Source of the DNA: Candidatus Heimdallarchaeota archaeon
GTDB lineage: Archaea; Asgardarchaeota; Heimdallarchaeia; Heimdallarchaeales; Heimdallarchaeaceae
Length of the DNA: 14,424 bases
Reading direction: 5' to 3'
Assembly: GCA_030668825.1 (NCBI GenBank)
Contig: DAOVET010000065.1
Span: 1 to 14,424 of the forward strand
Under the pieces are notes generated by a model. That model was given only the letters and a program-made list of their open reading frames with translations. It did not search any database and was not told the DNA's origin. Shown here piece after piece: positions 106 through 14,219 of this stretch. The position numbers were made by a program, and so were the translations under genes. Numbering within the stretch: the first letter of the stretch is position 1; each line of letters begins with the position of its first letter.

Positions 106-1204
106 TCCTGAAATTAATGACATAGTTGACTCTCTGCTTAACGATGTTGAAAATGTTCTCTCAAGATTAGAAGATTGTTTTTCCGACCCTTTAGTAGATG
201 TGAGAAACGAAATCGAAAAACAAGAAGAATCATTAGAAGGTATCAATATTAAAATCCCTTATCCGAGTGTTCGCTATCATACACCAGATACTGTTATTAA
301 ATCAAATGTTGAGAACAAAAAAACGATAATTTCCAAACAAGAACAATCAAACGTTCCAACAAAAGAAAGCATTGAAGAAGAAGCAAAAATAGAGAACGAA
401 TCACCAATAGAATTACCACCAGTTTACAAAGACATTCCCATGCCAAATATGGAGCATAGAATCGCAAATAGAGTGGTAAAGACGCATTCAGAGAGGAGTT
501 CTTCGCAAAGCGAATCCAACTTATCAAAAACAATAGAAAAACAAGATGAAATACAGCAAATAGTAGCTTGTGAAGATGAACTAGAAATCGAGTTTATTGA
601 TATTCCAAGAAGTACAAAACTTATACATTTTTATGGCCCTCCAAGTTCAGGAAAAACAACTTTTGCAATACAATCAGCAATTGAAATTTATCCGAAAAAT
701 ACTTATTATTTTATCACTAGCCATTCTACTTCAGTGATAAAAAGAATAAAACAGCTGATCAATCATCCAAGATGGCTCGAATATAAAGATATTAAGAAAA
801 TTCTCTTCCCTATTGCAACACAAAACTTAGATGAACTTCAATCCGAAATAGAAAAAATCAAAAAACTTGAACCCGAGAGAGTTGGGTTAATAGTTATTGA
901 CCATCTAACTGATTACATTAGAGGAGAGATTTACAAAGAAGAACAAAGAGTGGTTTTGCGGGAGATTCTTGAGCAATTGTATTTACTTGCGGACGAGAAG
1001 AATTGCAAAGTTCTAGTCCTAAATGGTTATTCTTACAACAATGTAGCACCAGCTGGAGATATTGTTGAATCTTATTGTGATATGACACTAACAGCTGAAT
1101 TGGATCAGAAGAAGGTTAATTTCATTACAGAAGATGAGGAAGTCAACGTTCATTTTGATAACTCAGGTATCAAGAATTTACATATAAATATCTACTTCAA
1201 TTGA
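86..1204 (+). CDS. RecA/RadA/RadB-family P-loop ATPase with a long acidic, probably disordered N-terminal extension
   Basis: Walker A FYGPPSSGKTT and Walker B LIVIDH in the C-terminal ~200 aa. The N-terminal ~170 aa are E/S/K/P-rich. TTG start preceded by AAGGTG. Confidence 0.75.
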   Translation: MIHLENNPEINDIVDSLLNDVENVLSRLEDCFSDPLVDVRNEIEKQEESLEGINIKIPYPSVRYHTPDTVIKSNVENKKTIISKQEQSNVPTKESIEEEAKIENESPIELPPVYKDIPMPNMEHRIANRVVKTHSERSSSQSESNLSKTIEKQDEIQQIVACEDELEIEFIDIPRSTKLIHFYGPPSSGKTTFAIQSAIEIYPKNTYYFITSHSTSVIKRIKQLINHPRWLEYKDIKKILFPIATQNLDELQSEIEKIKKLEPERVGLIVIDHLTDYIRGEIYKEEQRVVLREILEQLYLLADEKNCKVLVLNGYSYNNVAPAGDIVESYCDMTLTAELDQKKVNFITEDEEVNVHFDNSGIKNLHINIYFN

Positions 1205-1212
1205 GATTGATG

Positions 1213-1228
1213 AAAAAGAAAAAGAAAA
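1213..1228 (-). terminator. Oligo-T terminator of the ATPase-TOPRIM operon
   Basis: The minus strand reads TTTTCTTTTTCTTTTT directly after the stop codon. An equivalent tract lies at ~12708-12724. Confidence 0.6.
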
Positions 1229-1708
1229 TTACTGAATTTGAATCTCAAAATAGTATTTTTGGAACAATTCCTTTAAACACAGCAAATGATCTGAAGAAAG
1301 TAAGACATCTAATAGTTGTTTAAATTTGTCAATACGAATATTAACTCGTCCATGAAATTCATTTTCATCTCTAGAAAATCCAAAATCTCTTACATCTACT
1401 TTTTCTAATCGAGAAACTCTTAGAACCCAACCTTCAAGTTTTGGATCTAATTCAATTACATAATTATTGTTAGAAGTCTTGAAAACACTATATTTAAAAT
1501 ATTCACTAATTTCAACCTCTTCCATCTCTTTGTATTTTGGTGTAATATAATCTTTATCAACCATTCCAATAGAATTATTCATTCGGAATATCCAGTTCAA
1601 AACATTTCCTTTGCCATGTTTATGTTCCATGTCCTTTTTTGTAATATCAGGGAGCAATTTCTTTATTAGCTCCTCGTCAGAATAACATTCAAATAGAATC
1701 ATTTTCAT
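1229..1708 (-). CDS. Small TOPRIM-fold protein, putative nuclease partner of the ABC ATPase (OLD-TOPRIM/AriB-like)
   Basis: ILFECxSD (conserved Glu after the first beta-strand, ExxxD) and GMVDKD (DxD). It overlaps the ATPase stop by 20 nt, and the paralog at 12725-13204 keeps both motifs. Confidence 0.7.
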   Translation of the reverse strand: MKMILFECYSDEELIKKLLPDITKKDMEHKHGKGNVLNWIFRMNNSIGMVDKDYITPKYKEMEEVEISEYFKYSVFKTSNNNYVIELDPKLEGWVLRVSRLEKVDVRDFGFSRDENEFHGRVNIRIDKFKQLLDVLLSSDHLLCLKELFQKYYFEIQIQ

Positions 1709-2723
1709 GCCCTAGATATTTTTTAATGTTGAAGAATATATTATCCCAATCTAAAACTTCTTCCATCTGCTTTTCTGTCATACAATGAACTTTTGTTTCA
1801 TAATCTTCGTAGTAGGTGAGAAAAACACGTAAATCTTTCTTTGGAGTCTTTTCTACAAGTGATGCTAGCAAATATGGACTATGAGTAGAAATGAAGTACT
1901 GGTTGTTAGATTTATCTATCGCAATAATTTCTGCAATGTATTTAGTATAGAATGGAAAAAGATGCGTTTCAGGTTCTTCAAAAACAAGGATTGATTCCTT
2001 GTTTGATAAAATGGCAGGTATAAGGATGAATAATCTTTGAATTGTTTCTGCAGTGAGATTCAATGAAAAACCAACGAATAAATCGGCATCAAGTTTTACA
2101 ATTTCAATTTTTTTATCTACAGGACGTACATACGTTTTAAAACCAAAAGGATGTAAGATATCTGAAAGAGCACTTCCAAGTTTTTTGTTCGCTTGTAATA
2201 AACTTACTAAATTTGTTCCTAGTGGGGGAAGTAAGAATTCTGTTTCATGTTCAGTGAAATCAGTAAGCTGTTTATATCTGTAAAACTTAATCCGTGGATA
2301 CAATTCATCCACTTCTTCCATATGACCCTGAAAGTCCATATATCTCCCTCTTTCATCGAAGGAGATCCTTATGGATCTTTCCATATTAGGATTGTTCAAA
2401 TCTTCGACTCCTAATCTGAAATGAATAGTATTTCTCTCAGAGGAAATCTGAATTTCTGAGTTATCTATTCTAACAGTTGCTGGAATGTTAACATTGTTAT
2501 CGTAAAAGAAATTCATCATGTATTCAAATCGTACAATATCTCTGCTTATTTGTTCCTTGTCAGAAGTGTACTTGTTATATCTAATCGAGGAAAATAGTCC
2601 TAGAGCCTCTAGAATATTGGATTTTCCTGTATTAGGTTTGCCAATAAATATGTTTACTCTTGAACAATCCAAATCAACATTTTTGATAGATTTAAAATTT
2701 TTGATTGAAATATGCTTTATCAT
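1689..2723 (-). CDS. ABC-type ATPase (AAA_15/AAA_21, OLD/AriA-like)
   Basis: N-terminal IKNFKSI, Walker A IGKPNTGKS, degenerate signature LTAET, Walker B/D-loop LVFEEPETHLFP, H-loop ISTHSP. Confidence 0.9.
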   Translation of the reverse strand: MIKHISIKNFKSIKNVDLDCSRVNIFIGKPNTGKSNILEALGLFSSIRYNKYTSDKEQISRDIVRFEYMMNFFYDNNVNIPATVRIDNSEIQISSERNTIHFRLGVEDLNNPNMERSIRISFDERGRYMDFQGHMEEVDELYPRIKFYRYKQLTDFTEHETEFLLPPLGTNLVSLLQANKKLGSALSDILHPFGFKTYVRPVDKKIEIVKLDADLFVGFSLNLTAETIQRLFILIPAILSNKESILVFEEPETHLFPFYTKYIAEIIAIDKSNNQYFISTHSPYLLASLVEKTPKKDLRVFLTYYEDYETKVHCMTEKQMEEVLDWDNIFFNIKKYLGHENDSI

Positions 2724-2749
2724 TTTCTATACTTAAGGTTAAATTGCAA

Positions 2750-2763
2750 GTTTAAAATTGTTT
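2750..2763 (-). promoter_or_regulatory. BRE/TATA promoter of the ATPase-TOPRIM operon
   Basis: The minus strand reads AAACAATTTTAAAC about 27 nt before the ATG at 2723. Identical at 14246-14259. Confidence 0.6.
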
Positions 2764-3073
2764 TGTAGATAATCTAATGTAACCTCCCAACTTCTAGAAA
2801 GAATGTCATACCACCAGTAATGGGATCTTTGAACAAGAAAGGGTACAAGATAACTTGCATAATTGCTTTTTTTCCCAAACATTTCCGTTTTTCAAGATCG
2901 AATCATTCATGTTAATGTCCTCATAATATCTTGTAAGTTAACCTATTAATGCACCACAATTTTGAATCAATTACAAAGACATTTTTATCGGGGTTTAGAC
3001 CTTGTTAAACATTAATAGAAAGCAAAGAGAGAGCGTTAAAAAGCCTTTTATACTTCTTCTTGTGCGATAATAT

Positions 3074-3907
3074 ATGAGTTCAAGTGCAATCATTATTAAA
3101 CGAATCACTGCACTAAAGGAAATTTTAGTTCAACTCACGAAACTTATCGAAGGTGAGATCACTGATGAGGAGTATCAGGATCTCCTAGCTAATACTCAGA
3201 AAATATCTTTAATATTGAAGGAGAAGAAAATAGGTTCAGGAGAGTACAAAACTGCAGGTTCTTTAAATACACCTTCAAACTTCAAACAAATTGACTTTTT
3301 TGCAAATTTTGAAACATTACTGCAACAAGTTGGACGAAGATTTCTGAAGCAATGTATTTCTGCAGTAAATGCAGGAATTTCAATGTATGAAGAAGATTTA
3401 ATTGAACTTCAGAATAAACCAAAAAATAACCTAGCTAAAATCCCAAGTGAATTAGTTACTGTACAAGAAAAGGAAGTTTCTTCACTTATACAGAATCTTG
3501 AGGACCATCTAGTAAGAATGATTATTACCCAAATTCTGATGAATCCTGAAAAATATTCTGCTAAATACCGAAATATATCTGAACAAAGAAAAAAAGTTGT
3601 AAAAGAGAGCGATAAGTATCAATGCCAAATTTGTACAGAGCAGTTTCCTGAAAATGAATTAGAAATAGATCATATCTATCCTCATAGTTTGGGAGGATCT
3701 AATCTTCCATTTAATCTAATGTCTCTGTGTAGAGAATGCAATAAGAATAAGGGTGCAAGACTAGCTTATTATCAATCGAAAGAAGGACAAAATAAGTTAG
3801 AAATGAATATTAGAGATTTTGTCAAGAATTTAGGAATCATTCTAAATTTTGGAGTTTGGCTTGAAGAAATGAATAAATTTAGAAAAATAGATGGTAGAAT
3901 AGAATAA
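3074..3907 (+). CDS. HNH endonuclease domain protein (helical N-terminal region, C-terminal Zn-binding HNH)
   Basis: CQIC...EIDHIYPHSLGGSN...NLMSLCRECNKNK is a canonical CxxC-DH-GG-N-CxxCN HNH signature. Confidence 0.9.
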   Translation: MSSSAIIIKRITALKEILVQLTKLIEGEITDEEYQDLLANTQKISLILKEKKIGSGEYKTAGSLNTPSNFKQIDFFANFETLLQQVGRRFLKQCISAVNAGISMYEEDLIELQNKPKNNLAKIPSELVTVQEKEVSSLIQNLEDHLVRMIITQILMNPEKYSAKYRNISEQRKKVVKESDKYQCQICTEQFPENELEIDHIYPHSLGGSNLPFNLMSLCRECNKNKGARLAYYQSKEGQNKLEMNIRDFVKNLGIILNFGVWLEEMNKFRKIDGRIE

Positions 3908-3914
3908 GTGACCT

Positions 3915-4583
3915 CTATTTCTTTGTCGTATTTTTCTTGTCTCTTTTCTCTATTGCTTTTCTAGCTCCTTCAGGCAATTTTCCATAAAATGAATTGAGTT
4001 CTTTTTCTTGTGTAATTAGTACATTAACAATCATGTTGATTATTGAAAAAAGAGCAGTTGCCATGTCAATATCATCTGTAAGATCAATTTCGCCAGGATG
4101 TACAGCATTGTTGCCTATAATCCTCACAAAATCCAATCCTTTTTGAATCTGTTCAGGCAATCCTTTCTCTACCAAACTTGCTATGTCCTTATCGATGTAC
4201 TTGCCTTCTTCACCTAAATGTTTCATCAATTTTTGTATTGACAATCGTAATAGAGCAGCAGCTGCTCTAGGAGAATCAGAGACAATATTTCTAGCTTCAA
4301 GATAATCTTCTTTTACATCTTTAGGCATATTTTCAACAGGAAGAGGAGCTGAAGATGTTCTTGGAGATATAATTTTTCTAGAAAACCACAATGCAAATTT
4401 CTCACAATGAGAACAAATACTTACATCAATCCCTTCTAGTTCATCATAATATGTTCTATTAATACTAGTAGAACGAGTACGAGAACATGAAGCATTAAAC
4501 CATTCTTGATGTGAATAAACCCCACAATGGGGACAATGGAAGCTATCTGTGTAAAATTTTGGTGGAAAATACTTTTCGCTCAT
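3915..4583 (-). CDS. DUF4145 (HEPN-like) domain protein with N-terminal Zn-ribbon
   Basis: CPHC and CSHC; DYLEA...SPRAAAALLRLSIQ; RIIGNNAVHPGEI, typical of DUF4145. Confidence 0.85.
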   Translation of the reverse strand: MSEKYFPPKFYTDSFHCPHCGVYSHQEWFNASCSRTRSTSINRTYYDELEGIDVSICSHCEKFALWFSRKIISPRTSSAPLPVENMPKDVKEDYLEARNIVSDSPRAAAALLRLSIQKLMKHLGEEGKYIDKDIASLVEKGLPEQIQKGLDFVRIIGNNAVHPGEIDLTDDIDMATALFSIINMIVNVLITQEKELNSFYGKLPEGARKAIEKRDKKNTTKK

Positions 4584-4659
4584 TTTAAAAACATCTTAGT
4601 ATTATACTTATTGTTTTTGTAAAACCACGATTTCTTCTGTATTAATTGTTGCGGTTACT

Positions 4660-4749
4660 TCATTTTTTAAAGGAAGAACCTTTGAAGAATTTCATTTTTA
4701 TCCTACTCATTAACCGACTTCGTTCTTCTTTTGTAAAGATATCATTCAT
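4660..4749 (-). pseudogene. Truncated 5' stub of a very-short-patch-repair (Vsr) endonuclease gene
   Basis: Not in the ORF track. It translates to MNDIFTKEERSRLMSRIKMKFFKGSSFKK*. The first 18 aa fit the Vsr N-terminal pattern MxDxFTxExRSxxMSRI(R/K), but the expected (S)KNTKPE does not follow. A promoter-like CGAAAAATATTAAG lies at 4773-4786. Confidence 0.7.
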
Positions 4750-4887
4750 TATTATACATAGAAAAAGCACAACTTAATATTTTTCGATAAATATCTATGA
4801 TTACTTTCATTTGATTCAAGTAACAATGAATAAATTGACTGTTCTCATACAACTCACCGAAAGTTTATATTCTTTCACCCATTTAGA

Positions 4888-5436
4888 TTGTTCATGGCAG
4901 TGGATTGGAGTACTTTCTGGTCAGATATATTATCTGCTTTTATTCAAGGTTTAATAATACTAATTCTTGGAGCTGTTATTGCTTGGTTCTTAACACATAA
5001 CTATCAAAGAAGGAAGGACAGAAAGCAAGTGAAAAATCAGCTAATTGACGAAGTTCAGGATTTAATACTTTTATTAGAGGAAACAAATATTTCTTGGAAA
5101 ATTTGGAGAGAGAATCCAAAGGATTATAAGAATTTAGTTAAAACAGAATTATGTGCAAGTAACGCAATGAGAAAAGCAAAAATCATAGATACTAAATTTG
5201 ATAATTGGATTCCTAAATTTAATAATAAAACGATTATTGACAAGGCTATAAAAGAAGGTTATTTAAAGCACGAATTTTATGATTTTAATGAGACATTAAT
5301 CAATTATGGGGATAGTTTACTAGATGTGCTAGATGAAAGAGACACAAGTGAGGAAAATATAAATTCAATAGATGCCTTGTATAGAGAAGCAAATCGTTTC
5401 ATATTAATGATGTTACATAGTTTAATTGGTTTTTAA
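4888..5436 (+). CDS. Hypothetical protein with a single N-terminal TM helix (ATG at 4894 is the likelier start)
   Basis: Hydrophobic FIQGLIILILGAVIAWFL followed by basic QRRKDRK. GAAAGTTTATAT TATA box at ~4859-4870. Confidence 0.75.
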   Translation: MFMAVDWSTFWSDILSAFIQGLIILILGAVIAWFLTHNYQRRKDRKQVKNQLIDEVQDLILLLEETNISWKIWRENPKDYKNLVKTELCASNAMRKAKIIDTKFDNWIPKFNNKTIIDKAIKEGYLKHEFYDFNETLINYGDSLLDVLDERDTSEENINSIDALYREANRFILMMLHSLIGF

Positions 5437-5506
5437 AATGTAATTTGTAATTCATAGATCAATAACTCTCTTATTTCTATCTCTTTTTTCATTCATTTTA
5501 TTTTCT

Positions 5507-5737
5507 TCAGAACCATATTTTCTCTAATAGTTTTCTTATATCTTCATCTGATGATTTCAGTAACTCTTCAGGTATTTCGGGAGCGTTCATTAATGAACCA
5601 CTTCTAGATGTTGGATCGGATAAACACATAAATCCATTGATTAACCATTCTGCAAGGAATATTACTAGTTTCTTCAGCTCTTCATTCTTTCTCTCTAATT
5701 CAGCTATTTGACCTTTCATTCTTAAATGGGATACCAT
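5507..5737 (-). CDS. Small hypothetical protein with N-terminal coiled coil
   Basis: Stand-alone ORF with heptad-like IAELERKNEELKKL and an AT box upstream. Confidence 0.6.
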   Translation of the reverse strand: MVSHLRMKGQIAELERKNEELKKLVIFLAEWLINGFMCLSDPTSRSGSLMNAPEIPEELLKSSDEDIRKLLEKIWF

Positions 5738-5879
5738 AAGCTTTCAGTTAGATAAGAATCTAATTAACGTTGCTATTTCATGTAAAAAGAAATCATAGAA
5801 GGATGACATTATACATTAGTGGACAATTTTTATAAATTCCCAGTTTAGAATTGCTACAGCTTTCACGGAGATTGTTAGT

Positions 5880-6158
5880 ATGGATGTCAGTGATAAAATA
5901 AATCAATTAGAAGATGAGATTACTAGTATTGTACTAATTATTGGCACTATTCAAAACACTATAGCTTCATTCTATAGATCAATAGACTATCAGAAAGAGG
6001 CTATTCTAAATATTTTCAAAGAGCTGGATATAAGCAAAATAAATCAAGAAAAAGTTATAATTGAGTTAGAGACAGAAAGAGAGAAGTTAAGAGAAGAATA
6101 TAACCAAGAACTATTAAAAATTCAGGAAGCCTTAGAAAAATTAGGCAAAAAACATTGA
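5880..6158 (+). CDS. Small coiled-coil hypothetical protein
   Basis: E/K/L/I-rich helical sequence, GGAG RBS before the ATG, TTTATAAA box at ~5828-5836. Confidence 0.7.
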   Translation: MDVSDKINQLEDEITSIVLIIGTIQNTIASFYRSIDYQKEAILNIFKELDISKINQEKVIIELETEREKLREEYNQELLKIQEALEKLGKKH

Positions 6159-6243
6159 CCTTAAACTATTACTTTTCTTATTTCATATTTTTATCTAGAT
6201 TCCTATTTGAAGATAGAACAGATTCGATTGTTTTATTTGCATG

Positions 6244-6268
6244 AAATCATTAAAGGGCAGTGTAATAC
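6244..6268 (+). repeat. 25-bp direct repeat, left copy (pairs with 7233-7257)
   Basis: AAATCATTAAAGGGCAGTGTAATAC vs AAATTATAAAAGGACAGTGTATTAC, 21/25 identical. Confidence 0.75.
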
Positions 6269-6306
6269 AATTTTTATTTGTTTTAGTTTTTTTAACATTT
6301 ATCGGA

Positions 6307-7149
6307 TTATATTTGATCTAGTAATTCAATAATTGCATCAGGAAGCCAAAAATCTCTAAAATCGTCGATATTTACAATCCATTTGTTATCTATACCTTCA
6401 CAGATTTTTTTCCATTCTTCTGGTTTATATCTCGCTACTTCTGAAAGCATCCACGAAAAAATGAAAACGTTCAATATTCCCCTATTATCTTTTTGATCAA
6501 TCATTTCTTTCAAAGAAGGAAAGTAATTATCATAATACTCATCCATAGTAAAATTTTTTGTTCCATCATCTTTTTCTAAATAATCAGTACAACGGATTAA
6601 TAATGCAGCAAACACTCCATGAGTTTGTATTTTTGCTTGATGTACAACATCAGGCGATACATCTTTTTTCTTTCTTTTTAAACCGTGAGCACTAAAAAAT
6701 TCTTCAGGCTCAACTTTAAGTTCTAACATTATTACACCTTTTACTATCTGTAATAATGCGTAATATTCAATAATGGGACTTGAATTTATATCCATCTCAA
6801 GGGAGGTTTTATACATCTCATAACCTTGTAAGAAATATATTGAAGCTTTAGATGCAATATCTCTTATTTCTTTCTCTGTTTCAGGAAGAACAACAGAAAT
6901 GTTAACTTGGTAATTTTGAGGTTCTTTAATCCCTTGTTTTTGCCTTATTTTTTCTAGATGCTTAATATTTTCTGGATAAACGTATTGGAATCTCATATAA
7001 GAGTGATGAACATGTTTAACTTCTTTTTCTTTTTCTTTTGAAATTTCAATTGTCTTTAAACGTTGTCTTATTTTGCTTTCAATAGTTGAAGGATAACTTA
7101 ATTTTTTAAGTTCTTTTAGAATTTGTATTTTTCTATGATCCAATATCAT
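6307..7149 (-). CDS. YaaC-like family protein
   Basis: YFLQG..Y, SPIIEYY..LQ..K, HGL and LSEVARYKPEEW match the PLxxYY / HGL / LSxxxRYxPxxW pattern I recall for YaaC-like proteins. Confidence 0.7.
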   Translation of the reverse strand: MILDHRKIQILKELKKLSYPSTIESKIRQRLKTIEISKEKEKEVKHVHHSYMRFQYVYPENIKHLEKIRQKQGIKEPQNYQVNISVVLPETEKEIRDIASKASIYFLQGYEMYKTSLEMDINSSPIIEYYALLQIVKGVIMLELKVEPEEFFSAHGLKRKKKDVSPDVVHQAKIQTHGVFAALLIRCTDYLEKDDGTKNFTMDEYYDNYFPSLKEMIDQKDNRGILNVFIFSWMLSEVARYKPEEWKKICEGIDNKWIVNIDDFRDFWLPDAIIELLDQI

Positions 7150-7232
7150 AAATTAATCTTAAATAAAACAGTATAATTTGTTTTTTATAATTGAGTGATA
7201 TTGAATTGAGCGAAAAACTAACATCTATAAGT

Positions 7233-7257
7233 AAATTATAAAAGGACAGTGTATTAC
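7233..7257 (+). repeat. 25-bp direct repeat, right copy (pairs with 6244-6268)
   Basis: See the left copy. The pair encloses only the YaaC-like gene with its flanks. Confidence 0.75.
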
Positions 7258-7286
7258 GCTATTGTTGGTAAATCACAAGAAGGTGA

Positions 7287-7572
7287 TTGTTTTATATACC
7301 CCTTTGAAAATATAATACTTTGATGAGGAAAATACAAACTTTTGATATTTGGGTTATTTTAGCTATAGGTTCTATCATATTTACAGCTATTGCTGGGTGG
7401 ATTAGATTATCACAAGATAGTTATCCCGCATGGATTTATAATGCGCCTATCGGAGGATTATCCGTGGCTTTAGTTTGTATGGGAATGTGGATGCTTGCGA
7501 GAAAGAGATTCAAAAACGATATTTCAAGATACCCTGAAAATCTTTGAATTAACTTAGTTTGTTTTATATACC
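7287..7572 (+). repeat. 14-bp perfect direct repeat TTGTTTTATATACC at 7287-7300 and 7559-7572
   Basis: Identical 14-mers flank the 7320-7547 gene. The left copy contains that gene's TATA box. Confidence 0.65.
7320..7547 (+). CDS. Small two-TM membrane protein
   Basis: Two hydrophobic segments (IWVILAIGSIIFTAIAGWI; APIGGLSVALVCMGMWML). TTTATATA box about 25 nt upstream. Confidence 0.75.
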   Translation: MMRKIQTFDIWVILAIGSIIFTAIAGWIRLSQDSYPAWIYNAPIGGLSVALVCMGMWMLARKRFKNDISRYPENL

Positions 7573-7666
7573 TGGATAAAGCACACCTTAATTACAATTC
7601 TTCTGGAATACTTGAATGTTTTGCTAGATTTATCTATAAAAGTAAAAGTACTACCAGTGCCTCTTA

Positions 7667-8137
7667 CTAATTCTTAGATTGTTTTTTCTTTGAATTTTTG
7701 ATTTCTGTAGATTTCTGTAAATCTAGAAACACTCCTTTTAATCTCTGTGAAGCTCTATAGAGATTGCTTTCACCAAACTCTTGTTGAATAATAATATTGG
7801 GACTTTGGATTATGTTAATTGTAATTTGTAATTCTCTTCTATACATCATTAATTCGTCAATGATCTTATTATCAAAAAATATAATGTCTCCAGAGGATAT
7901 TAATCCTGTGATAACTTCGTAGAGAGGTAGAACACCTAAATTGTTTCTATAAGTTGTATGTAGAATCTCATCGTTTGTATCAAGCTCAAACAATATTGAT
8001 TTAATGTATTTTCTCTTCTTCTCACTAATTTCATTTCTATCCTTTACTTTCTGAAATAGTAAATCAATACCAAACCCTAAAAAAGCTCCAAAAATTAGAA
8101 AAACTAAATTAATGAGACTAGCAATATAGTCAGCCAT
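7667..8137 (-). CDS. Hypothetical protein with a single N-terminal TM helix
   Basis: LINLVFLIFGAFLGFGIDLL followed by a charged helical domain. AAGTTTATC box upstream. Confidence 0.75.
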   Translation of the reverse strand: MADYIASLINLVFLIFGAFLGFGIDLLFQKVKDRNEISEKKRKYIKSILFELDTNDEILHTTYRNNLGVLPLYEVITGLISSGDIIFFDNKIIDELMMYRRELQITINIIQSPNIIIQQEFGESNLYRASQRLKGVFLDLQKSTEIKNSKKKQSKN

Positions 8138-8209
8138 AGAAAAAAGTAATTATTAGAATTGATAAACTTTACTTCAACTCTGGTGCAATTACAAAAAGAC
8201 TCAAGTTTC

Positions 8210-8229
8210 GTTTGGTCTCAGAATAGTAA
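8210..8229 (+). repeat. Junction motif copy 1
   Basis: GTTTGGTCTCAGAATAGTAA. Confidence 0.75.
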
Positions 8230-8259
8230 AAAAGAAAGAGAAAATTACTTTTACGAAAA

Positions 8260-8535
8260 CTAATTGCTTTTTTCATGTTCTCTAATTGCTACAACTATTA
8301 ATTGTACAATAACATTATCAGGATACTTTTGTTCTAGTAATTCAGCTAATGCTTGACAGCCTGTACTATTAATGAATACTGAAAAAAGTTCATGATCATC
8401 TTTTAATTGAGTAGCCCAACTAATTAATCCAATAAAATAGATTTCATGTATTTCAGTTTTTCCAGTCAAATAGTCGCCTAATTCACGACCAAGTTTTTTA
8501 CATTGTTCTTCTGTTATTTTTTTGCTAGAGTTCAT
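8260..8535 (-). CDS. Small hypothetical protein
   Basis: Stand-alone ORF with a CTTTAAATA box ~26 nt upstream and a T-tract downstream. Confidence 0.7.
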   Translation of the reverse strand: MNSSKKITEEQCKKLGRELGDYLTGKTEIHEIYFIGLISWATQLKDDHELFSVFINSTGCQALAELLEQKYPDNVIVQLIVVAIREHEKSN

Positions 8536-8608
8536 TAATATCAGTACTATTGGTACATTTGAATATTTAAAGATGCCAAGTTATTCTCCTGTGTTACAAG
8601 GTTTTTCA

Positions 8609-8628
8609 GTTTGGTCTCAGGATGGTAA
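8609..8628 (+). repeat. Junction motif copy 2 (extended similarity 8602-8676 to ~9185-9264)
   Basis: GTTTGGTCTCAGGATGGTAA, followed by TTTTCTTTGGAAATTTTACTAATATAAAGG and an A-tract, as in copy 3. Confidence 0.8.
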
Positions 8629-8698
8629 TTTTCTTTGGAAATTTTACTAATATAAAGGAAAAAAAGAAAAAAATTATAGATCTCTCTTTAAAGTACTA

Positions 8699-9112
8699 TT
8701 ACCACTTTGTTACCATCTGATGAGTTCCATCTTTAAATCCGCCAAGCAGAATAACTAAGCAATCAATAGCCCAACCAATTCCACATATACCAAAAGTAAA
8801 TAAGTATAGTATTCCCGAACCCACTTTACCTACATAGAATCTATGGACCCCAATAATACCAAAGAGTAAACAAAGAATAAGTGCTACTAATCTACTCTTC
8901 TGTGATATACTAGGCTGAGTTCCAGGCACGGTTACTTGTACAACTTGACTAACGCTTTGTACTGGTGCAACTGTTATTGGTTGCGGAGTGATTGTTTGTT
9001 CTTGCTGAGTTTGTCCTTTCATTTGCGCACCACAATTTTGGCAAAACTTCGCTTCAGGATCTTGGGTAGAACCGCATTTTGGACAGAAAAATTTTTGATT
9101 CATATTTATCAC
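8699..9112 (-). CDS. Zinc-ribbon + TM2 domain membrane protein (ATG at 9103 is the likelier start)
   Basis: FCPKCG...FCQNCG double Zn-ribbon, Q/P/V linker, then KSRLVALILCLLFGIIGVHRFYVGKVGSGILYLFTFG (TM2 signature). Confidence 0.92.
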   Translation of the reverse strand: MINMNQKFFCPKCGSTQDPEAKFCQNCGAQMKGQTQQEQTITPQPITVAPVQSVSQVVQVTVPGTQPSISQKSRLVALILCLLFGIIGVHRFYVGKVGSGILYLFTFGICGIGWAIDCLVILLGGFKDGTHQMVTKW

Positions 9113-9132
9113 TTCTGAAAAACTCTTTTCAG

Positions 9133-9234
9133 TTTCATATTAATTTCTAGAACTGAGATTGAAGGGATTTTAAGCTTTGAAACAGTTTTCGGTTTTGGCT
9201 CAAAAAGGTAGTTTTCTCTAGAAATTTTACTAAT
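9133..9234. repeat. 102-bp direct repeat, left copy (promoter + junction motif copy 3 at 9192-9211)
   Basis: 90/102 identical to 11342-11443 without gaps (73 of the first 78). Motif GTTTTGGCTCAAAAAGGTAG. Confidence 0.92.
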
Positions 9235-9240
9235 ATTAAG

Positions 9241-9261
9241 GAAAAAAAGAAAGAAAAAAAA
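9241..9261 (-). terminator. Oligo-T terminator
   Basis: Long T-tract on the minus strand immediately after the stop codon of the 669-aa gene. Confidence 0.6.
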
Positions 9262-11271
9262 TTACAAACTAATTGCCCCATCTAAATCACATATAGCTAT
9301 AGTATGCTCATCACTAGTTATACTCCCTTTATCAATATAGTATTGTAGCCAAGCAGGATGTGTTCCAAAAGGAGTATCCCAAGTAGTATCAATAAAACAC
9401 CAAGTAAATCCTTCATCGTAGTAAGGGTCTATACTTCCAAATCGCCATAAACTACACGCAGGGTATACTAATCTAAAAGCGTCTGTGTCTTCAATATGAA
9501 CCAAAAGCGTCATATGATAAAAACCATAGTCAGCATCATGAAAACCAACTAAGGTTGTCTCAAATCCACAAGATTCTAAGTAAGCAGAAACTAACATTGC
9601 TTGGTCTTCACAATCTCCTAATGTTCTGAAAGCAGTCTCAACAGGGAACTTAACATAATCCAAACCAAATGACTCTTGTCCAACAGTTATATCAGTATCA
9701 TATTCATAATCAATTTCATCTATACACCATTGAACAATTTCATTAATCCAATATAATTCATTCCCTAACAACGCTGACCCCCAATACGGAAGCCAATCCC
9801 AGAAAGTCCAATAGAAAATATCCAAAGCCAGATACTCAGTTTGATTACCATACTTTAAACAATCTGCAAGAGCATTAGACACTTCTGAAAACCAATGCCC
9901 TTCTAAAAAGGTGTCTACATAACTTTGTGAATCATGTAAAACTATGTCCCTACAAAATCTTGTAAATTGATACCAATATGTAGAATCATCTGTCGCTAAA
10001 CTTACATAATAGTCTTCAAAGTAGTATCGTCTAACAGCCTCTGCAAAAATCATATATTGTGCAGGTAAAGTCATTTGTCTAATCCAAGTTGATAATTGAT
10101 TCCATTGTTGAGATAGAATATTATACTCTGCTTCTAATAACAGATAATCTGATTCAAGTTGAACATATAAAATACCTAGTTGGTTAAAAGCATCTGATAA
10201 TAAATTATAATCTATTTGTAAATTATCAAAATTAGATTGTAATGTAATCAAATTTTCTGTTAGTACATTGTATTCTGCTAACAAAGTATTGTATGTCGTT
10301 GAAAGTACATCAAATTCCGTAATTAACAGTTCGTGTTCAGATTGTAATATGCTATAATTTACTAATAATGTATTGTAGTCATTAAGCATTACATTGTAAC
10401 TTGTTTCCAAAGTAGAATAAGCTGATACCAAAGCATTGTAATCTTCTTGTAGGTCACTGTTTTCTATTACCAAAATATCATACTCTATAATTAATAAATT
10501 ATAATTTGCTAATATTGTAGTATAAAGAATATCTAAAGTTTCATATTCACCTAGTAGCATATTATAGCTCGTTATAAGTGCAGTATGTTCAGCTTGAAGT
10601 GTATTATAATCCAACTGTAATTCTTCATGAGCTAGTACTAATATATTATGATTTAACATTAAAGAATCATAGTCTATTTGTAAATCTCCAAGTTCAGTCT
10701 CTAAAACATTAAAAGCTATTAATAACGTATTATAGTCTGCAAATAAAGCGTCATAAGCTACTACAAGTGCATCATGCTCTGCTATTAAGAGATTATGATC
10801 ACCTTCTAATGTAGAATATTCTTCTATCAATAAATTATACTCAGCCATTACCGTATTGTAATCAGATAATAAAACATTATAAGCGATCACTAAAGTATCA
10901 TAATCTTCTTGTAACGCATTATTTTCCATGACTAATGTTTCATAGGTTTCTACTACAACACTATAATTTCCTAATAATGTAGAGTAGGTCTCATTTAATA
11001 TATTATAATCCAGTAGTAGTTTGGCATAGAGTTCATCCAAAGTAATATTTCCTTCAATTAATATGTCATACTTTTCTTGCAACTCGGTATAATTTCCTTC
11101 CAAATTATTGTAATCTCCTAAAAGATTATTATATTCTTCATTCAATTCTTCGAGGTCTAACAAAAGTGCACCATAGTCTTCACCAGTTAAATCTGTAATG
11201 AGATAACCAGTTAAACCACCGACGCAAAAAAATACAAGTATTAAGCTTCCTGTTAACATGTTTTTATTCAT
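9262..11271 (-). CDS. Membrane-anchored long coiled-coil protein with C-terminal transglutaminase-like cysteine protease domain
   Basis: N-terminal TM/signal (LILVFFCVGGLTGYLI) and ~350 aa of Y-x-x-L heptads. The C-terminal KFPVET...GDCEDQAML, HM and FIDTT give a Cys-His-Asp triad. GAGGT RBS. Confidence 0.85.
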   Translation of the reverse strand: MNKNMLTGSLILVFFCVGGLTGYLITDLTGEDYGALLLDLEELNEEYNNLLGDYNNLEGNYTELQEKYDILIEGNITLDELYAKLLLDYNILNETYSTLLGNYSVVVETYETLVMENNALQEDYDTLVIAYNVLLSDYNTVMAEYNLLIEEYSTLEGDHNLLIAEHDALVVAYDALFADYNTLLIAFNVLETELGDLQIDYDSLMLNHNILVLAHEELQLDYNTLQAEHTALITSYNMLLGEYETLDILYTTILANYNLLIIEYDILVIENSDLQEDYNALVSAYSTLETSYNVMLNDYNTLLVNYSILQSEHELLITEFDVLSTTYNTLLAEYNVLTENLITLQSNFDNLQIDYNLLSDAFNQLGILYVQLESDYLLLEAEYNILSQQWNQLSTWIRQMTLPAQYMIFAEAVRRYYFEDYYVSLATDDSTYWYQFTRFCRDIVLHDSQSYVDTFLEGHWFSEVSNALADCLKYGNQTEYLALDIFYWTFWDWLPYWGSALLGNELYWINEIVQWCIDEIDYEYDTDITVGQESFGLDYVKFPVETAFRTLGDCEDQAMLVSAYLESCGFETTLVGFHDADYGFYHMTLLVHIEDTDAFRLVYPACSLWRFGSIDPYYDEGFTWCFIDTTWDTPFGTHPAWLQYYIDKGSITSDEHTIAICDLDGAISL

Positions 11272-11341
11272 TTTTTTACCTCTGTTCCTGTTCCGTCACA
11301 AGCCTCGACTTGTGAGCTTTAGAAATTAATACTCTCTTCCT

Positions 11342-11443
11342 TTTCATATTAATCTCTAGAACTGAGATTTAGGGGTTTTTAAACTTTGAAACAGTTTTCG
11401 GTTTTGGCTCAAAAAGGTAATTTTAAAGAAAGATTTTACTAAT
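11342..11443. repeat. 102-bp direct repeat, right copy (promoter + junction motif copy 4 at 11401-11420)
   Basis: Matches 9133-9234. Motif GTTTTGGCTCAAAAAGGTAA. Minus-strand TATA AAAGTTTAAAAA. Confidence 0.92.
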
Positions 11444-11500
11444 TAATACTATCTTGCCGAAACTTCTTATAGCTCTTGGGGGTAAGAAACAAAGATTAAA

Positions 11501-11737
11501 ATGGTAGATTGTTTATTAGGATGGTGTTTCATTTCACAAGAAGAACTAATACTTTATATTGTTCTTGCTGCTGTTGCTGGTCTCATAATTGGAGCACTGT
11601 GTGGTGCTGCTTTTAAATCTGGGAAAAAGGAAGTAGTTTATGTCCAACCTCCTCCTCAATACCCACCACCACAACAGCCACAACATAGACAACCTCCCCC
11701 TCAGCGCCCTCCTCAAGATCAACAAAAACAACAATGA
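11501..11737 (+). CDS. Small single-TM protein with Pro/Gln-rich tail
   Basis: LILYIVLAAVAGLIIGALCGAAF, then KSGKK and VVYVQPPPQYPPPQQPQ.... Confidence 0.8.
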   Translation: MVDCLLGWCFISQEELILYIVLAAVAGLIIGALCGAAFKSGKKEVVYVQPPPQYPPPQQPQHRQPPPQRPPQDQQKQQ

Positions 11738-11885
11738 AATAATCTTACAGAAAGTTTTCTTATGGAGTATCGGCAATAAAATAAATCGTTATCAGTTTCT
11801 CCTGGATAGTAAATATTTTCATCAGCTGATAATTTTCTTTCATGAAAGTATTTAATCACCAATATTACAAAATGACTTGGACCAA

Positions 11886-12195
11886 GATTTGAACCAGGGT
11901 TGAAAATCATACCAGGTATTGGTAATAGGGATTCTCATTATCTTGCTAAAAAGTGGCGTTTGTATGTCACATATAACATGCGAAAAAATGATGTCTATAT
12001 GTCAAATAGAAAAAACAAGTTTCTTTAGTTACTCATGGCCATAAAGAACTTTCCATTTTCCTTCCCTTTTTCTTATTAGGGAGGGAGGAGAAGTAGCTAT
12101 AAAATGAAAGCTACTTCCCAAGAATAGTATTAGAACGAGATTAATAAAGGTTATCTAATAAAAAATCAGGTTGGAGGAGAACCCAGGTTCAAATC
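11886..12195. repeat. 16-bp inverted repeat pair (11886-11901 and 12180-12195) resembling a tRNA T-arm
   Basis: AACCCTGGTTCAAATC (minus) vs AACCCAGGTTCAAATC (plus), 15/16. Confidence 0.65.
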
Positions 12196-12221
12196 CGTAT
12201 TGAGAAAATCTTATCATTTAC

Positions 12222-12709: not shown

Positions 12710-12724
12710 AAAAGAAAAAGAAAG

Positions 12725-13204
12725 TTACTTAACTTGAATCTCAAAATAGTATTTCTGGAACAATTCCTTTAAACACAGCAAATGCTTTGAAGAAAGTAAG
12801 ACATCTAATAGTTGTTTAAATTTGTCAATACGAATCATAGTTTTTCTATGAAATTCATTTTCATCTCTAGAAAATCCAAATTCTTTAATATCTACATTTT
12901 CTAAACGAGAAACTCTCAGAATCCAACCTTCAAGTTTTGGATCTAATTCAATTACATAATTATTGTTTGAAGTCTTGAAAACACTATATTTGAAATATTC
13001 ATTAACTTCAACCTCTTCCATCTCTCTGTATCTAGGTCTAATATAATCTTTATCAACCATTCCAATAGAATTGTTCATTTGGAATATCCATTTCAAAATA
13101 TTTCCTTTACCATATTTATGTTCCATTTCCTTTTTTGTAATATCAGGGAGCAATTTCTTTATTAATTCCCCATCAGAATCACATTCAAATAGAATCATTT
13201 TCAT
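12725..13204 (-). CDS. Small TOPRIM-fold protein, paralog of 1229-1708
   Basis: ILFECDSD and GMVDKD. 24 of 159 residues differ from copy 1 by manual count. Confidence 0.7.
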   Translation of the reverse strand: MKMILFECDSDGELIKKLLPDITKKEMEHKYGKGNILKWIFQMNNSIGMVDKDYIRPRYREMEEVEVNEYFKYSVFKTSNNNYVIELDPKLEGWILRVSRLENVDIKEFGFSRDENEFHRKTMIRIDKFKQLLDVLLSSKHLLCLKELFQKYYFEIQVK

Positions 13205-14219
13205 TCCCTAGATATTTATCAATGTTGAAGAATATATTATCCCAATCTAAAACTTCTTCCATCTGCTTTTCTGTCATACAATGAACTTTAGTTTCATAAT
13301 CTTCGTAGTAGGTGAGAAAAACACGTAAATCTTGCGGTGGAGTCTTTTCTACAAGTGATGTTAGCAAATAAGGATTATGAGTAGAAATGAAATATTGGTT
13401 GCTGAACTTATCAATCGCAATAATTTCTGCAATATATTTAGTATAGAAAGGAAATAGATGCGTTTCAGGTTCTTCAAAAACAAGGATTGATTCATTGTTT
13501 GATAAAATGGCGGGTATAAGAATGAATAATCTTTGAATTGTTTCTGCAGTGAGATTCAATGAAAAACCAACGAATAAATCTGTATCAAGTTTTACAATTT
13601 CAATTTTTTTATCAGCAGGACGTACATACGTTTTAAAACCAAAGGGATGTAAAATATCAGAAAGAGCAGTTCCAATTTTTTTATTCGCTTGCAATACATT
13701 TACTAAATTTGTTCCTAGTGGGGGAAGTAAGTATTCTGTTTCATGTGCTTTGAATTCAAAAAGCTGTTTGTACCTATAAAATTTAATCACAGGATACAAA
13801 TCATCAAATCCCTTCATCGTACCAATAAACTCTCTATAATGCCCTAGATCAGTAAAGGATATTCTTATTGCTTTTTCTTTTCTTTTATTAATCTGATCAA
13901 TGTGTTCTAATCTGAGATGATATTCATCCTGCTCAGAGGAGATAAGAATTTGTGAATTATCGACTGTAATGGTTGCAGGGTTATTTGTATTGTTATCATA
14001 AAAGAAATTCATGAAATATTCATATCGCACAATATCCTTGCTTATATGTTGTTTGTCAGTTGTATAACGATTAAATCTAATTGAAGAAAACAGTCCTAGA
14101 GCTTCTAAAATATTGGATTTTCCTGTATTAGGTTTACCAATAAATATATTTATTCTTGAACAATCCAAATCAACATTTTTGATTGATTTAAAATTTTTGA
14201 TAGAAATATGTTTTATCAT
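13185..14219 (-). CDS. ABC-type ATPase (AAA_15/AAA_21), paralog of 1689-2723
   Basis: GKPNTGKS, FEEPETHL, ISTHNP. 64 of 344 residues differ from copy 1 by manual count. Confidence 0.9.
   Translation of the reverse strand: MIKHISIKNFKSIKNVDLDCSRINIFIGKPNTGKSNILEALGLFSSIRFNRYTTDKQHISKDIVRYEYFMNFFYDNNTNNPATITVDNSQILISSEQDEYHLRLEHIDQINKRKEKAIRISFTDLGHYREFIGTMKGFDDLYPVIKFYRYKQLFEFKAHETEYLLPPLGTNLVNVLQANKKIGTALSDILHPFGFKTYVRPADKKIEIVKLDTDLFVGFSLNLTAETIQRLFILIPAILSNNESILVFEEPETHLFPFYTKYIAEIIAIDKFSNQYFISTHNPYLLTSLVEKTPPQDLRVFLTYYEDYETKVHCMTEKQMEEVLDWDNIFFNIDKYLGNENDSI

What the first reader, a model, noticed from the sequence alone, without database searches (positions are those of the whole stretch)
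2235..2579. Hypervariable insert in the paralogous ATPases: candidate sensor region under diversification
Seen (manual count): residues 1-48 differ at 1 position and residues 164-344 at 15 of 181. Residues 49-163 differ at 48 of 115, including 28 of 48 in residues 97-144, many non-conservative and without indels. The matching region in copy 2 is 13731-14075. Established: in PARIS the ATPase AriA senses viral proteins and releases the TOPRIM toxin. Inference: the two copies are specificity variants recognising different triggers, produced by positive selection or segment exchange.
Basis: partly seen in the sequence, partly recalled or inferred. Interest (0 to 1): 0.7.

Follow-up and report, generated by a model that had tools for sequence, protein, structure and literature searches.

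The report
Hypervariable mosaic patch in twin defence ATPases
An Asgard (Heimdall-group) archaeon carries two copies of a tiny, unannotated ATPase-plus-nuclease gene pair of the anti-virus type, and the copies differ mainly in one swapped, fast-changing patch of the ATPase that may decide what each copy recognises, though that role is untested.

Summary
A two-breakpoint scan puts the block at residues 45-158 (0 of 200 shuffles reach it).

The genes are two copies, 11.5 kb apart, of an operon on one contig of a Heimdallarchaeota MAG. It encodes a 344-aa SMC/Rad50/OLD-like ABC ATPase without a coiled coil, and an overlapping 159-aa protein. The small protein hits no Pfam, PADLOC or NCBIfam model but folds as an OLD-type TOPRIM (Z 9.5).

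The block is mainly a recombination mosaic. Synonymous divergence between the copies is about 1.05 inside it and 0.19 downstream, with dN/dS 0.29.

Its core, residues 97-144, is a beta-meander of ABC "Insert-1". It is hypervariable among seven close alleles (9/48 invariant, against 137/181 downstream). In the closest DNA pair it has 22.5 nonsynonymous against 1.5 synonymous changes. That omega is about 4-6 and differs from the rest of the gene (p=0.0005), but is not significantly above 1 (p=0.075).

A second clade shows the same block-wise mosaicism. The sensor role is inferred by analogy with PARIS and is untested. This is not a PARIS member.

The parts
1689..2723 (-). ATPase copy 1 (344 aa, P0001). 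It is an ABC ATPase of the AAA_15/AAA_21 type. Motifs: Walker A GKPNTGKS at 28-35, Walker B/EEPE at 246-252, STH at 279-281.
   Evidence: AAA_15 4.8e-22, AAA_21 2.8e-15. Model pLDDT 92.9. SMC/Rad50 heads Z about 20, OLD 18.2, GajA 17.9.
2235..2579 (-). Divergent block of copy 1 (residues 49-163). It is a recombination mosaic of deeper ancestry than its flanks.
   Evidence: One search gives the counts. Searches give dS 1.05 against 0.19 (164-344) and 0.42 (1-48). One search places the maximum chi-square block at 2251-2589. One search gives a copy-1 branch of 0.51 in the block against 0.036 in the flanks.
2292..2435 (-). Hypervariable core of copy 1 (residues 97-144). It comprises strands 99-107, 115-123 and 128-132, the loop 108-114 and helix 135-139 of the ABC Insert-1 beta subdomain.
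   Evidence: One search gives the secondary structure; 9 of 48 positions invariant and 22 of 48 with 3 or more states among 7 alleles; entropy 2.94 bits family-wide.
1229..1708 (-). Partner copy 1 (159 aa, P0003). It is a stand-alone mini-TOPRIM that overlaps the ATPase 3' end by 20 nt.
   Evidence: Searches (pLDDT 92.9; fold; invariant E7, D51). No Pfam, PADLOC or NCBIfam hit.
13185..14219 (-). ATPase copy 2 (344 aa, P0002). It is 81% identical to copy 1 and 88% identical to the gene of a congeneric genome (L061).
13731..14075 (-). Divergent block of copy 2 (residues 49-163). Its hypervariable core lies at 13788-13931.
   Evidence: Copy 2 against L061 in 97-144: sd 1.5, nd 22.5. Searches give the codon-model tests.
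12725..13204 (-). Partner copy 2 (159 aa, P0004). It is 85% identical to P0003.
   Evidence: dS 0.16 and omega 0.47 against copy 1.
2724..2790 (-). Conserved upstream leader and promoter-like stretch of the duplicated unit. It is 82% identical to 14220-14286, and similarity ends beyond it.
1213..1228 (-). Conserved T-rich tail after the partner stop codon. This is the 3' end of the duplicated unit, 15 of 16 nt identical to 12709-12724.

Best explanation
The window holds two diverged, intact copies of a self-contained two-gene cassette. Each cassette encodes a minimal OLD/PARIS-like ABC ATPase (an SMC/Rad50-type head without a coiled coil) translationally coupled to a 159-aa stand-alone TOPRIM protein.

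By analogy with PARIS and other OLD-like systems, I infer that the ATPase holds the TOPRIM nuclease in check and releases or activates it on sensing an invader.

Copy 1 carries a central cassette of much older ancestry than its flanks.

What is also shown: the core of that block (residues 97-144) is a folded beta-meander plus loop of ABC Insert-1. It is the family's hypervariable element, and amino-acid replacement there runs at or above the neutral rate while the rest of the protein is strongly constrained.

What is inferred: this patch is a recognition surface for an external ligand (trigger). It is diversified by point substitution and by exchange of whole cassettes between alleles, so the two copies give the cell two specificities.
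For: Mosaic: copy 1 against copy 2 gives pS 0.565 in residues 49-163, 0.166 in 164-344 (Fisher p=8e-8) and 0.143 in the partner gene. The breakpoint scan is significant (0 of 200 permutations).

Copy 1's block differs by 27-34 of 48 residues (97-144) from all 6 other close alleles, which differ by 9-25 among themselves. In the flanks copy 1 is not an outlier.

Other mosaics: P0009 and L061 are identical over 49-163 but differ at 7 of 30 residues in 271-300. There P0009 matches copy 1 (2 differences) and L061 matches copy 2 (2 differences).

An independent clade of 7 metagenome alleles shows the same behaviour. L013 and L014 have 0 differences in 1-163 but dS 0.48 in 164-344. L014 against L016 has dS 2.34 in 97-144, 0.42 in 164-344 and 0 differences in 1-48. 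L019 against L021 has dS 0.75 in 49-96 and 0.07-0.08 elsewhere.

Hypervariability: 9 of 48 positions are invariant in 97-144, against 46 of 48 in 1-48 and 137 of 181 in 164-344, among 7 alleles.

Copy 2 against L061 in 97-144: 18 codons changed, 1 of them silent. NG86 gives sd 1.5 and nd 22.5, omega 3.9. The ML codon model gives omega 6.4, against 0.25 for the rest of the gene; the heterogeneity LRT is 12.3, p=0.0005.

The patch is folded: block pLDDT is 82-96 and it forms strands. Close alleles have no indels there.

In 6 cognate pairs, ATPase patch divergence does not track partner divergence (rho -0.09), while flank divergence does (rho 0.68). The pairing was inferred from shared contig lengths.

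Both copies keep all catalytic motifs.

The TOPRIM fold and the operon are conserved. In 25 related loci, 24 have an ORF of 115-179 aa directly after the ATPase. Three of these are cut by the contig end or, in L014, diverge before it. The 25th locus ends 19 nt after the ATPase.

Published analogy: AriA loop 113-124 and IS1 (122-180) are poorly conserved and proposed to recognise triggers (PMC11464382).
Against: For the pair in the window, omega is below 1 throughout the block: 0.13, 0.59 and 0.19 by NG86, and 0.42 by ML with t=2.4, which is saturated.

Omega above 1 in copy 2 against L061 is not significant (LRT 3.16, p=0.075). The region was chosen after seeing the data, and the result rests on one pair.

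In the second clade the exchanged blocks have omega 0.09-0.88.

Residues 97-144 are also the least conserved part of the family at large and carry indels in distant members. That is what an unconstrained surface element would look like.

The L061 operon is broken: an IS truncates the partner after codon 10. Part of its divergence could therefore be relaxation. However, the same block occurs unchanged in a second allele, P0009.

In the other PARIS structure paper, Ocr binds between the AriA coiled-coil domains (10.1101/2024.01.02.573835, passages). This ATPase lacks that element.

No defence phenotype, trigger or ATPase-TOPRIM complex has been shown for this family.
Confidence: 0.5

Rival explanations
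1. Ordinary neutral variability. Residues 97-144 form a weakly constrained surface element of the ATPase that drifts at about the neutral rate and is shuffled by recombination like the rest of the gene. The two copies are redundant paralogs with no difference in specificity.
For: Omega is not significantly above 1 in any comparison. Copy 1 against copy 2 gives omega 0.42-0.59. The region has the highest entropy family-wide (2.94 bits) and carries indels. Mosaic breakpoints also occur outside the patch, at 271-300 and at 163/164 in the second clade.
Against: The patch is a confidently folded beta-meander. Framework residues are kept (9 invariant positions, e.g. the I-S core of strand 115-123), and the seven close alleles have no indels. 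The ratio of 22.5 nonsynonymous to 1.5 synonymous changes exceeds the neutral expectation of about 4.3:1. Both copies are kept intact with their partners.
Confidence: 0.3
2. Paralog insulation. The patch is the docking surface for the TOPRIM partner. It diverged so that each ATPase controls only its own partner and the two co-resident pairs do not cross-talk.
For: The two partners differ at 24 of 159 residues, with a local cluster (partner residues 101-130: nd 10.5, sd 1.5). AriA and AriB are reported to co-evolve (PMC11464382 section 11).
Against: Across 6 cognate pairs, patch divergence is uncorrelated with partner divergence (rho -0.09; 15 non-independent comparisons). Flank divergence is correlated (rho 0.68). 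The patch is just as variable among alleles from different genomes, where no insulation is needed.
Confidence: 0.12
3. Intragenomic gene conversion has homogenised the flanks of two old paralogs, and the central block merely escaped it. Nothing was imported.
For: Some stretches are nearly identical between the copies: ATPase residues 301-344 (1 synonymous difference, dS 0.05) and partner residues 111-140 (dS 0.03).
Against: Over most of the flanks copy 2 is closer to the L061 gene of another species than to copy 1. For 1-48, dS is 0.105 against 0.419. For 164-344, dS is 0.128 against 0.188. So the flanks were not recently homogenised within this genome. Either way the pattern is a recombination mosaic. 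Three DNA sequences cannot resolve the direction.
Confidence: 0.25
4. Artefact or targeted mutagenesis. Either the contig is a chimera of two strains' alleles, or the patch is diversified by a retroelement (DGR).
For: The sequence comes from a MAG with 4.67% contamination. Both copies lie near the contig ends.
Against: The unique flanks of the two copies are unrelated (30-33% identity outside the unit). Exact Logan contigs chain from 2739 to 12817 by short overlaps and cover both patches. The longest shared exact run is 69 nt. The window holds no reverse transcriptase. The substitutions show no adenine bias: 11 of 24 are from A and 8 of 24 are to A.
Confidence: 0.03

Closest known systems
PARIS (AriA ABC ATPase + AriB DUF4435/TOPRIM; 'class 4' OLD-like system)
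   Same: Both are two separate adjacent genes, an AAA_15/21 ABC ATPase followed by a TOPRIM-fold protein. The partner model matches AriB at Z 6.3. The poorly conserved segment lies in the N-terminal ATPase half, some 60-110 residues after the Walker A lysine. This is the linear position of AriA loop 113-124 and IS1 122-180, which are proposed to recognise triggers.
   Different: The ATPase is 344 aa with no coiled-coil or IS2 insertion (AriA is 55 kDa). The variable element is a beta-meander, not three helices. The partner is 159 aa with no DUF4435, Pfam or PADLOC AriB hit (AriB is 35 kDa). AriA chains do not appear at E<=0.001 in a profile search of PDB sequences, nor among the 50 entries shown by VIA-align. 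The hexamer, trigger release and tRNA target are untested.
OLD-family nucleases (P2 Old, Ts/Bp OLD; Gabija GajA)
   Same: These give the best fold matches for both proteins. The partner matches the Bp OLD Toprim region at Z 9.5 and Ts OLD at 8.8. The ATPase matches Ts OLD at Z 18.2 and GajA at 17.9.
   Different: In OLD and GajA the ATPase and Toprim are one polypeptide with a dimerisation insert. Here they are split and minimal. A search among longer proteins found no fused form, which is weak evidence.
AbiL (AbiLi/AbiLii), MADS3-4, DUF4276- and RloB-linked AAA_15/21 pairs
   Same: The ATPase matches the PADLOC AbiLi model over its full length (E 2.8e-18) and NCBIfam MADS3 weakly (47 bits, cut-off 420). 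One of 14 partner homologs has a sub-threshold DUF4276 hit (E 0.056). The Atlas lists a DUF4276 cluster at rank 30, score 0.91.
   Different: No partner sequence reaches any AbiLii, RloB, DUF4276 or DUF4435 model. All the ATPase hits are generic for the AAA_15/21 superfamily.
Menshen NsnB
   Same: This is the best PADLOC score: NsnB 3e-21 over residues 1-332. It is also a short ABC ATPase without a coiled coil (PMC12065111 section 14).
   Different: The window holds no ParB/DUF262 NsnA and no inPIN-nuclease NsnC. The Walker B and other motifs here are canonical, whereas NsnB has them altered.

Membership tests
PARIS | AAA_15/AAA_21 ABC ATPase component | tested here: met
   Pfam AAA_15 4.8e-22 and AAA_21 2.8e-15 for P0001, both above cut-off.
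PARIS | Adjacent separate TOPRIM nuclease gene | tested here: met
   By fold only: Z 9.5, 8.8 and 7.4 to OLD and GajA Toprim regions and Z 6.3 to AriB. E7 and D51 are invariant and D53 and E92 nearly so. The genes overlap by 20 nt.
PARIS | AriB belongs to DUF4435 (PF14491) | tested here: not met
   0 Pfam families for P0003 and P0004 at E<=0.1. No DUF4435 hit at E<=10 among the 11 Heimdall-group partners nor at E<=1 among 14 distant ones. 0 PADLOC families.
PARIS | AriA coiled-coil/IS2 insertion that builds the hexamer | tested here: not met
   In the AlphaFold model (pLDDT 92.9), residues 149-171 form a loop and there is no helical insertion. The protein is 344 aa.
PARIS | Trigger-induced release of the nuclease; tRNA cleavage | not testable with these tools
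   This needs biochemistry.
OLD family (classes 1-2) | ATPase and Toprim in one polypeptide | tested here: not met
   There are two ORFs in both copies, and 24 of 25 related loci have an ORF of 115-179 aa directly after the ATPase. No longer homolog of the partner was found (weak).
Menshen | NsnA (ParB-DUF262) and NsnC (inPIN + nuclease) neighbours | tested here: not met
   A Pfam scan of 14 window ORFs shows no DUF262/ParB and no PIN domain.
AbiL | AbiLii-type partner | tested here: not met
   The PADLOC AbiLi model hits the ATPase (2.8e-18). No AbiLii or other PADLOC model hits either of the 2 partners or any of the 14 homologs.
DUF4276-linked ATPase pairs | Partner matches PF14103 | tested here: inconclusive
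   1 of 14 distant partners hits at E 0.056, 14 bits against a cut-off of 30. An Atlas DUF4276 cluster ranks 30 of 30 at 0.91. A distant relationship is possible.
Diversity-generating retroelement target | Nearby reverse transcriptase, template repeat, adenine-specific changes | tested here: not met
   No reverse transcriptase domain in the window. The repeats contain no template copy of the patch. No adenine bias in the substitutions.

The most novel reading that the evidence does not exclude
A widespread minimal ATPase-TOPRIM immune or toxin-antitoxin module that no annotation library recognises. The partner family has about 1,500 clusters at 50% identity, across bacteria and archaea. It uses a small cassette-like beta-meander in ABC Insert-1 as its invader-recognition element. 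Populations diversify the element by swapping whole cassettes between alleles on highly conserved recombination anchors, much as polymorphic toxin or antigen loci do. This Asgard archaeon stacks two specificities in one island.
Probability: 0.3. Interest if true: 0.65.

Novelty: new variant of a known kind. Interest (0 to 1): 0.5.

Why it matters
If the reading holds, this is the smallest known version of the OLD/PARIS design: an ABC-ATPase sensor guarding a TOPRIM effector, 344 + 159 aa. That size makes it convenient for working out how such ATPases read a trigger.

The recognition element would be pinned to a 48-residue patch with natural cassette variants ready for swap experiments.

It would also add an unannotated defence-type family to Asgard archaea and many bacteria. 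It would show that specificity in these systems is renewed mainly by allelic cassette exchange rather than by point mutation alone.

If the patch is only a tolerant loop, the finding reduces to an ordinary duplicated, recombining accessory operon.

Tried and rejected
(1) Complex prediction with ATPase x2 plus partner (collected) gave no verdict (score 0.00, mark 0.32). No interface was returned, so I could not ask whether the patch touches the partner. This is evidence in neither direction.

(3) More DNA of close alleles. A family-level search of 31 genomes and a class-level search of 83 genomes each found only one close relative, G013 = L061. The metagenome scan returned only relatives of 46% identity or less over the full length. 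P0005-P0008 are therefore available as protein only, and site-model tests were not possible.

(4) Read laying. Runs X5 and X7 have almost no contig cover at 88% likeness or more over window 1925-2405, although they cover the neighbouring partner and ATPase 3' end. Lack of cover is not evidence, so I did not use it.

(5) Joints 2846->11847 (X1, X2) and 2863->11847 (X7) hint at a form lacking the 9 kb between the copies. The sides are only 23-30 letters, so I reject them as evidence.

(6) The viral-contig scan with the ATPase profile found 36 loci, all of them only distant AAA_15/21 relatives. There is no sign that this family is virus-borne.

(7) The PDB sequence search with the ATPase profile matched 5 distinct sequences, none of them AriA. 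The residue-level equivalence of the patch with AriA IS1 could therefore not be tested.

(8) DGR was considered and rejected.

(9) The earlier-findings look-ups returned nothing on this locus.

(10) Literature. The searches gave no description of this short pair in the listings I saw. I read only PMC11464382 (passages and section 11), 10.1101/2024.01.02.573835 (passages) and PMC12065111 (abstract, outline and section 14). The source data of Fig. 6c of PMC11464382 and the supplementary tables of the Asgard defensome papers (listed, not opened) may already catalogue such genes. The claim 'undescribed' is therefore limited to Pfam, PADLOC, NCBIfam and these searches.
Full report
WHAT IS THERE

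The window is a whole 14,424-nt contig (C70) of a 2.76-Mb, 138-contig MAG that is 90.6% complete with 4.67% contamination. The closest named relatives of its proteins are Candidatus Heimdallarchaeota MAGs.

On the minus strand lie two copies, 11,496 nt apart, of a 1,578-nt unit. Each unit has:
- a 67-nt conserved leader;
- a 344-aa ATPase gene (1689-2723 and 13185-14219);
- a 159-aa gene overlapping the ATPase 3' end by 20 nt (1229-1708 and 12725-13204);
- a 16-nt T-rich tail.

Outside the unit the flanks are unrelated (30-33% identity). These are the only two copies in the genome.

THE OBSERVATION

A two-breakpoint maximum chi-square scan over the whole unit puts the divergent block at window 2251-2589 (residues 45-158). 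No shuffle out of 200 reached the observed value.

Exact Logan contigs from two marine-sediment runs cover both patches. These runs may be the source sample.

WHAT THE PROTEINS ARE

The ATPase hits Pfam AAA_15 and AAA_21. Its PADLOC hits are generic: NsnB 3e-21, AriA 2e-20, AbiLi 3e-18, plus GajA, Old and PtuA. Its NCBIfam hits are all far below cut-off.

The AlphaFold model (pLDDT 92.9) is an SMC/Rad50-type head. VIA-align gives Z about 20 to SMC, condensin and Rad50 heads, 18.2 to Ts OLD, 17.9 to GajA, 17.6 to retron Eco8 and 17.3 to PtuA. It has no coiled coil: residues 149-171 are a loop.

The 159-aa partner has no Pfam, PADLOC or NCBIfam hit. Its model (pLDDT 92.9) is best matched by Toprim regions of OLD-family nucleases: Bp OLD Z 9.5, Ts OLD 8.8, GajA 7.4, AriB 6.3 and retron Eco2 6.2. 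These rank above generic Rossmann-like folds at Z about 5-6. Across 28 homologs, E7 and D51 are invariant and C8, H29, D53, P89 and E92 nearly so. This is the E...DxD...E pattern expected of a Toprim; the motif is from my own knowledge.

The pair is conserved. In 25 related loci from bacteria and archaea, 24 have an ORF of 115-179 aa directly after the ATPase. Three of these are cut by the contig end or, in L014, diverge before it. The 25th locus ends 19 nt after the ATPase.

A profile of the partner finds 1,546 clusters at 50% identity with E<=0.001. The 150 best are all 111-201 aa long. In the protein Atlas, 29 of the 30 nearest clusters are unnamed and the 30th is DUF4276.

So this is a sizeable unannotated family of minimal, split OLD-like ATPase + TOPRIM pairs.

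WHY THE BLOCK DIFFERS

Between the two copies, synonymous divergence is not uniform:

| Region | dS | omega |
|---|---|---|
| ATPase 1-48 | 0.42 | - |
| ATPase 49-163 | 1.05 | 0.29 |
| ATPase 49-96 | - | 0.13 |
| ATPase 97-144 | - | 0.59 |
| ATPase 164-344 | 0.19 | - |
| Partner gene | 0.16 | 0.47 |

The inside-versus-downstream contrast gives Fisher p=8e-8. The ML estimate for 97-144 is omega 0.42 at t=2.4, which is saturated.

The central cassette of copy 1 comes from a lineage far outside the sampled alleles. It differs at 27-34 of 48 residues from every other allele, which differ by 9-25 among themselves. Its branch is 0.51 in the block against 0.036 in the flanks.

Copy 2 is closer to the gene of another species (L061, 88% aa) than to copy 1 almost everywhere. 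So the flanks were not simply homogenised inside this genome. Short near-identical patches (ATPase 301-344, part of the partner gene) do suggest some local conversion.

MOSAICISM IS GENERAL

P0009 and L061 are identical in 49-163 yet carry the two alternative haplotypes of 271-300.

In an unrelated clade of seven metagenome alleles (80-96% identical), blocks 1-163, 49-96, 97-144 and 164-344 each show discordant synonymous distances. Examples: L013 and L014 are identical in 1-163 but have dS 0.48 downstream. L014 against L016 has dS 2.34 in 97-144 against 0.42 downstream. L019 against L021 has dS 0.75 in 49-96 against 0.07-0.08 elsewhere.

The nearly invariant first 48 residues, which include Walker A, look like a recombination anchor. 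That is inference.

THE HYPERVARIABLE CORE

Residues 97-144 form strands 99-107, 115-123 and 128-132, the loop 108-114 and helix 135-139. This is the distal part of what the ABC-ATPase literature calls Insert-1 (term from PMC12065111 section 14).

Among seven close alleles, only 9 of 48 positions there are invariant and 22 of 48 have three or more states. This compares with 46 of 48 invariant in 1-48 and 137 of 181 in 164-344.

In the closest DNA pair (copy 2 against L061), 18 codons differ and only one difference is silent:
- NG86 gives sd 1.5 and nd 22.5, omega 3.9.
- A GY94-type ML fit gives omega 6.4, against 0.25 for the rest of the gene.
- The heterogeneity test is significant (LRT 12.3, p=0.0005).
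- The test against omega=1 is not significant (LRT 3.16, p=0.075).

The region was picked post hoc.

The patch is also the family's least conserved stretch (2.94 bits against 0.9-2.1 elsewhere) and has indels in distant members.

The L061 operon is damaged. An IS with an rve-type transposase follows the ATPase, and the partner reading frame departs from the family after 10 codons. However, the same patch sequence occurs in the distinct allele P0009.

The honest statement is this. Replacement in the patch runs at or above the neutral rate while the rest of the protein is under strong purifying selection. Positive selection is suggested but not demonstrated.

FUNCTION

No experiment exists for this family.

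The PARIS papers show that AriA sequesters the TOPRIM AriB and releases it on binding the phage protein Ocr. One paper places Ocr between the coiled-coil domains (10.1101/2024.01.02.573835, passages).

The other implicates the disordered loops 113-124 and 161-174 and IS1 (122-180). [quoted passage not shown]

The patch here sits at the same linear distance from Walker A as AriA IS1 but has a different structure. I could not test structural equivalence.

In six cognate pairs, patch divergence is uncorrelated with partner divergence (rho -0.09), whereas flank divergence is correlated (rho 0.68). The pairing was inferred from shared contig lengths, and the 15 comparisons are not independent. This argues weakly for an external ligand rather than the partner interface.

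Context is compatible with defence:
- The window also encodes an HNH endonuclease, a DUF4145 protein and a YaaC-like protein.
- In one clade the pair sits between a DUF1156 methylase and a DUF499 gene, with MNT/HepT toxin-antitoxin genes nearby. Two other loci adjoin HEPN/MNT pairs.
- Several loci are isolated among housekeeping genes, as mobile cassettes are.
- Distribution is patchy. At E<=1e-60, 3 of 24 other genomes of the genus match, and only 1 of those is close.

VERDICT

This is a new minimal variant of the known OLD/PARIS kind, with a well-delimited candidate specificity cassette.

Noticed in passing
window 1194-1234, 8210-8250, 8603-8673, 9119-9256, 11328-11443, 12690-12730: A repeated 40-115-nt intergenic element (families D3-D5, 83-86% identical among the better copies). 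It lies 70-160 nt upstream of several successive minus-strand genes and just downstream of both partner genes. Read on the minus strand it contains a TTTATATT-like box, so it may be a reused archaeal promoter cassette.
   Followed up: no
L061:7016-8055: In the congeneric genome, the TOPRIM partner reading frame leaves the family sequence after 10 codons and stops. An rve-type transposase ORF (7123-8055) follows, so that operon appears to have been disrupted by an IS.
   Followed up: partly
L015:1524-4883 and L019:336-3701, compared with L021:3323-6001: In two metagenome loci the DUF1156 DNA-methylase gene appears as two ORFs with an MNT/HepT toxin-antitoxin pair between them. In L021 it is one 893-aa ORF with the MNT/HepT pair upstream. 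The ATPase-TOPRIM pair then follows, ahead of a DUF499 gene.
   Followed up: no
window 1229-1708 against 12725-13204 (partner residues 101-130): The two TOPRIM partners have a local cluster of replacements (nd 10.5, sd 1.5), including GRVNI against RKTMI at residues 122-126. Other alleles carry RQANI there.
   Followed up: partly
window 3074-4583 and 6307-7149: Between the two copies lie an HNH endonuclease (HNH_5 5e-16), a DUF4145 protein (7e-16) and a YaaC-like protein (2e-18). This suggests a small accessory or defence island bracketed by the duplicated operon.
   Followed up: no
window 9262-11271: A 669-aa protein has a long N-terminal run of near-periodic 'DYN(T/I)L'-type heptad-like repeats, which hit leucine-zipper models. 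Its C-terminal part is a transglutaminase-like domain.
   Followed up: no
window 2846/2863 -> 11847: Contigs of three runs (X1, X2, X7) join the region upstream of copy 1 to about 11847, skipping some 9 kb. In X1 and X2 there are 17 other letters between the two sides. The sides are only 23-30 letters, so this may be a repeat artefact or an alternative arrangement in a related strain.
   Followed up: no
ATPase residues 271-300 (window 1824-1913; copy 2 13320-13409): Two alternative haplotypes of this stretch (SNNQYFISTHSPYLLASLV..KK-type and FSNQYF.STHNPYLLTSLV..Q-type) are reassorted among alleles independently of the central block.
   Followed up: partly
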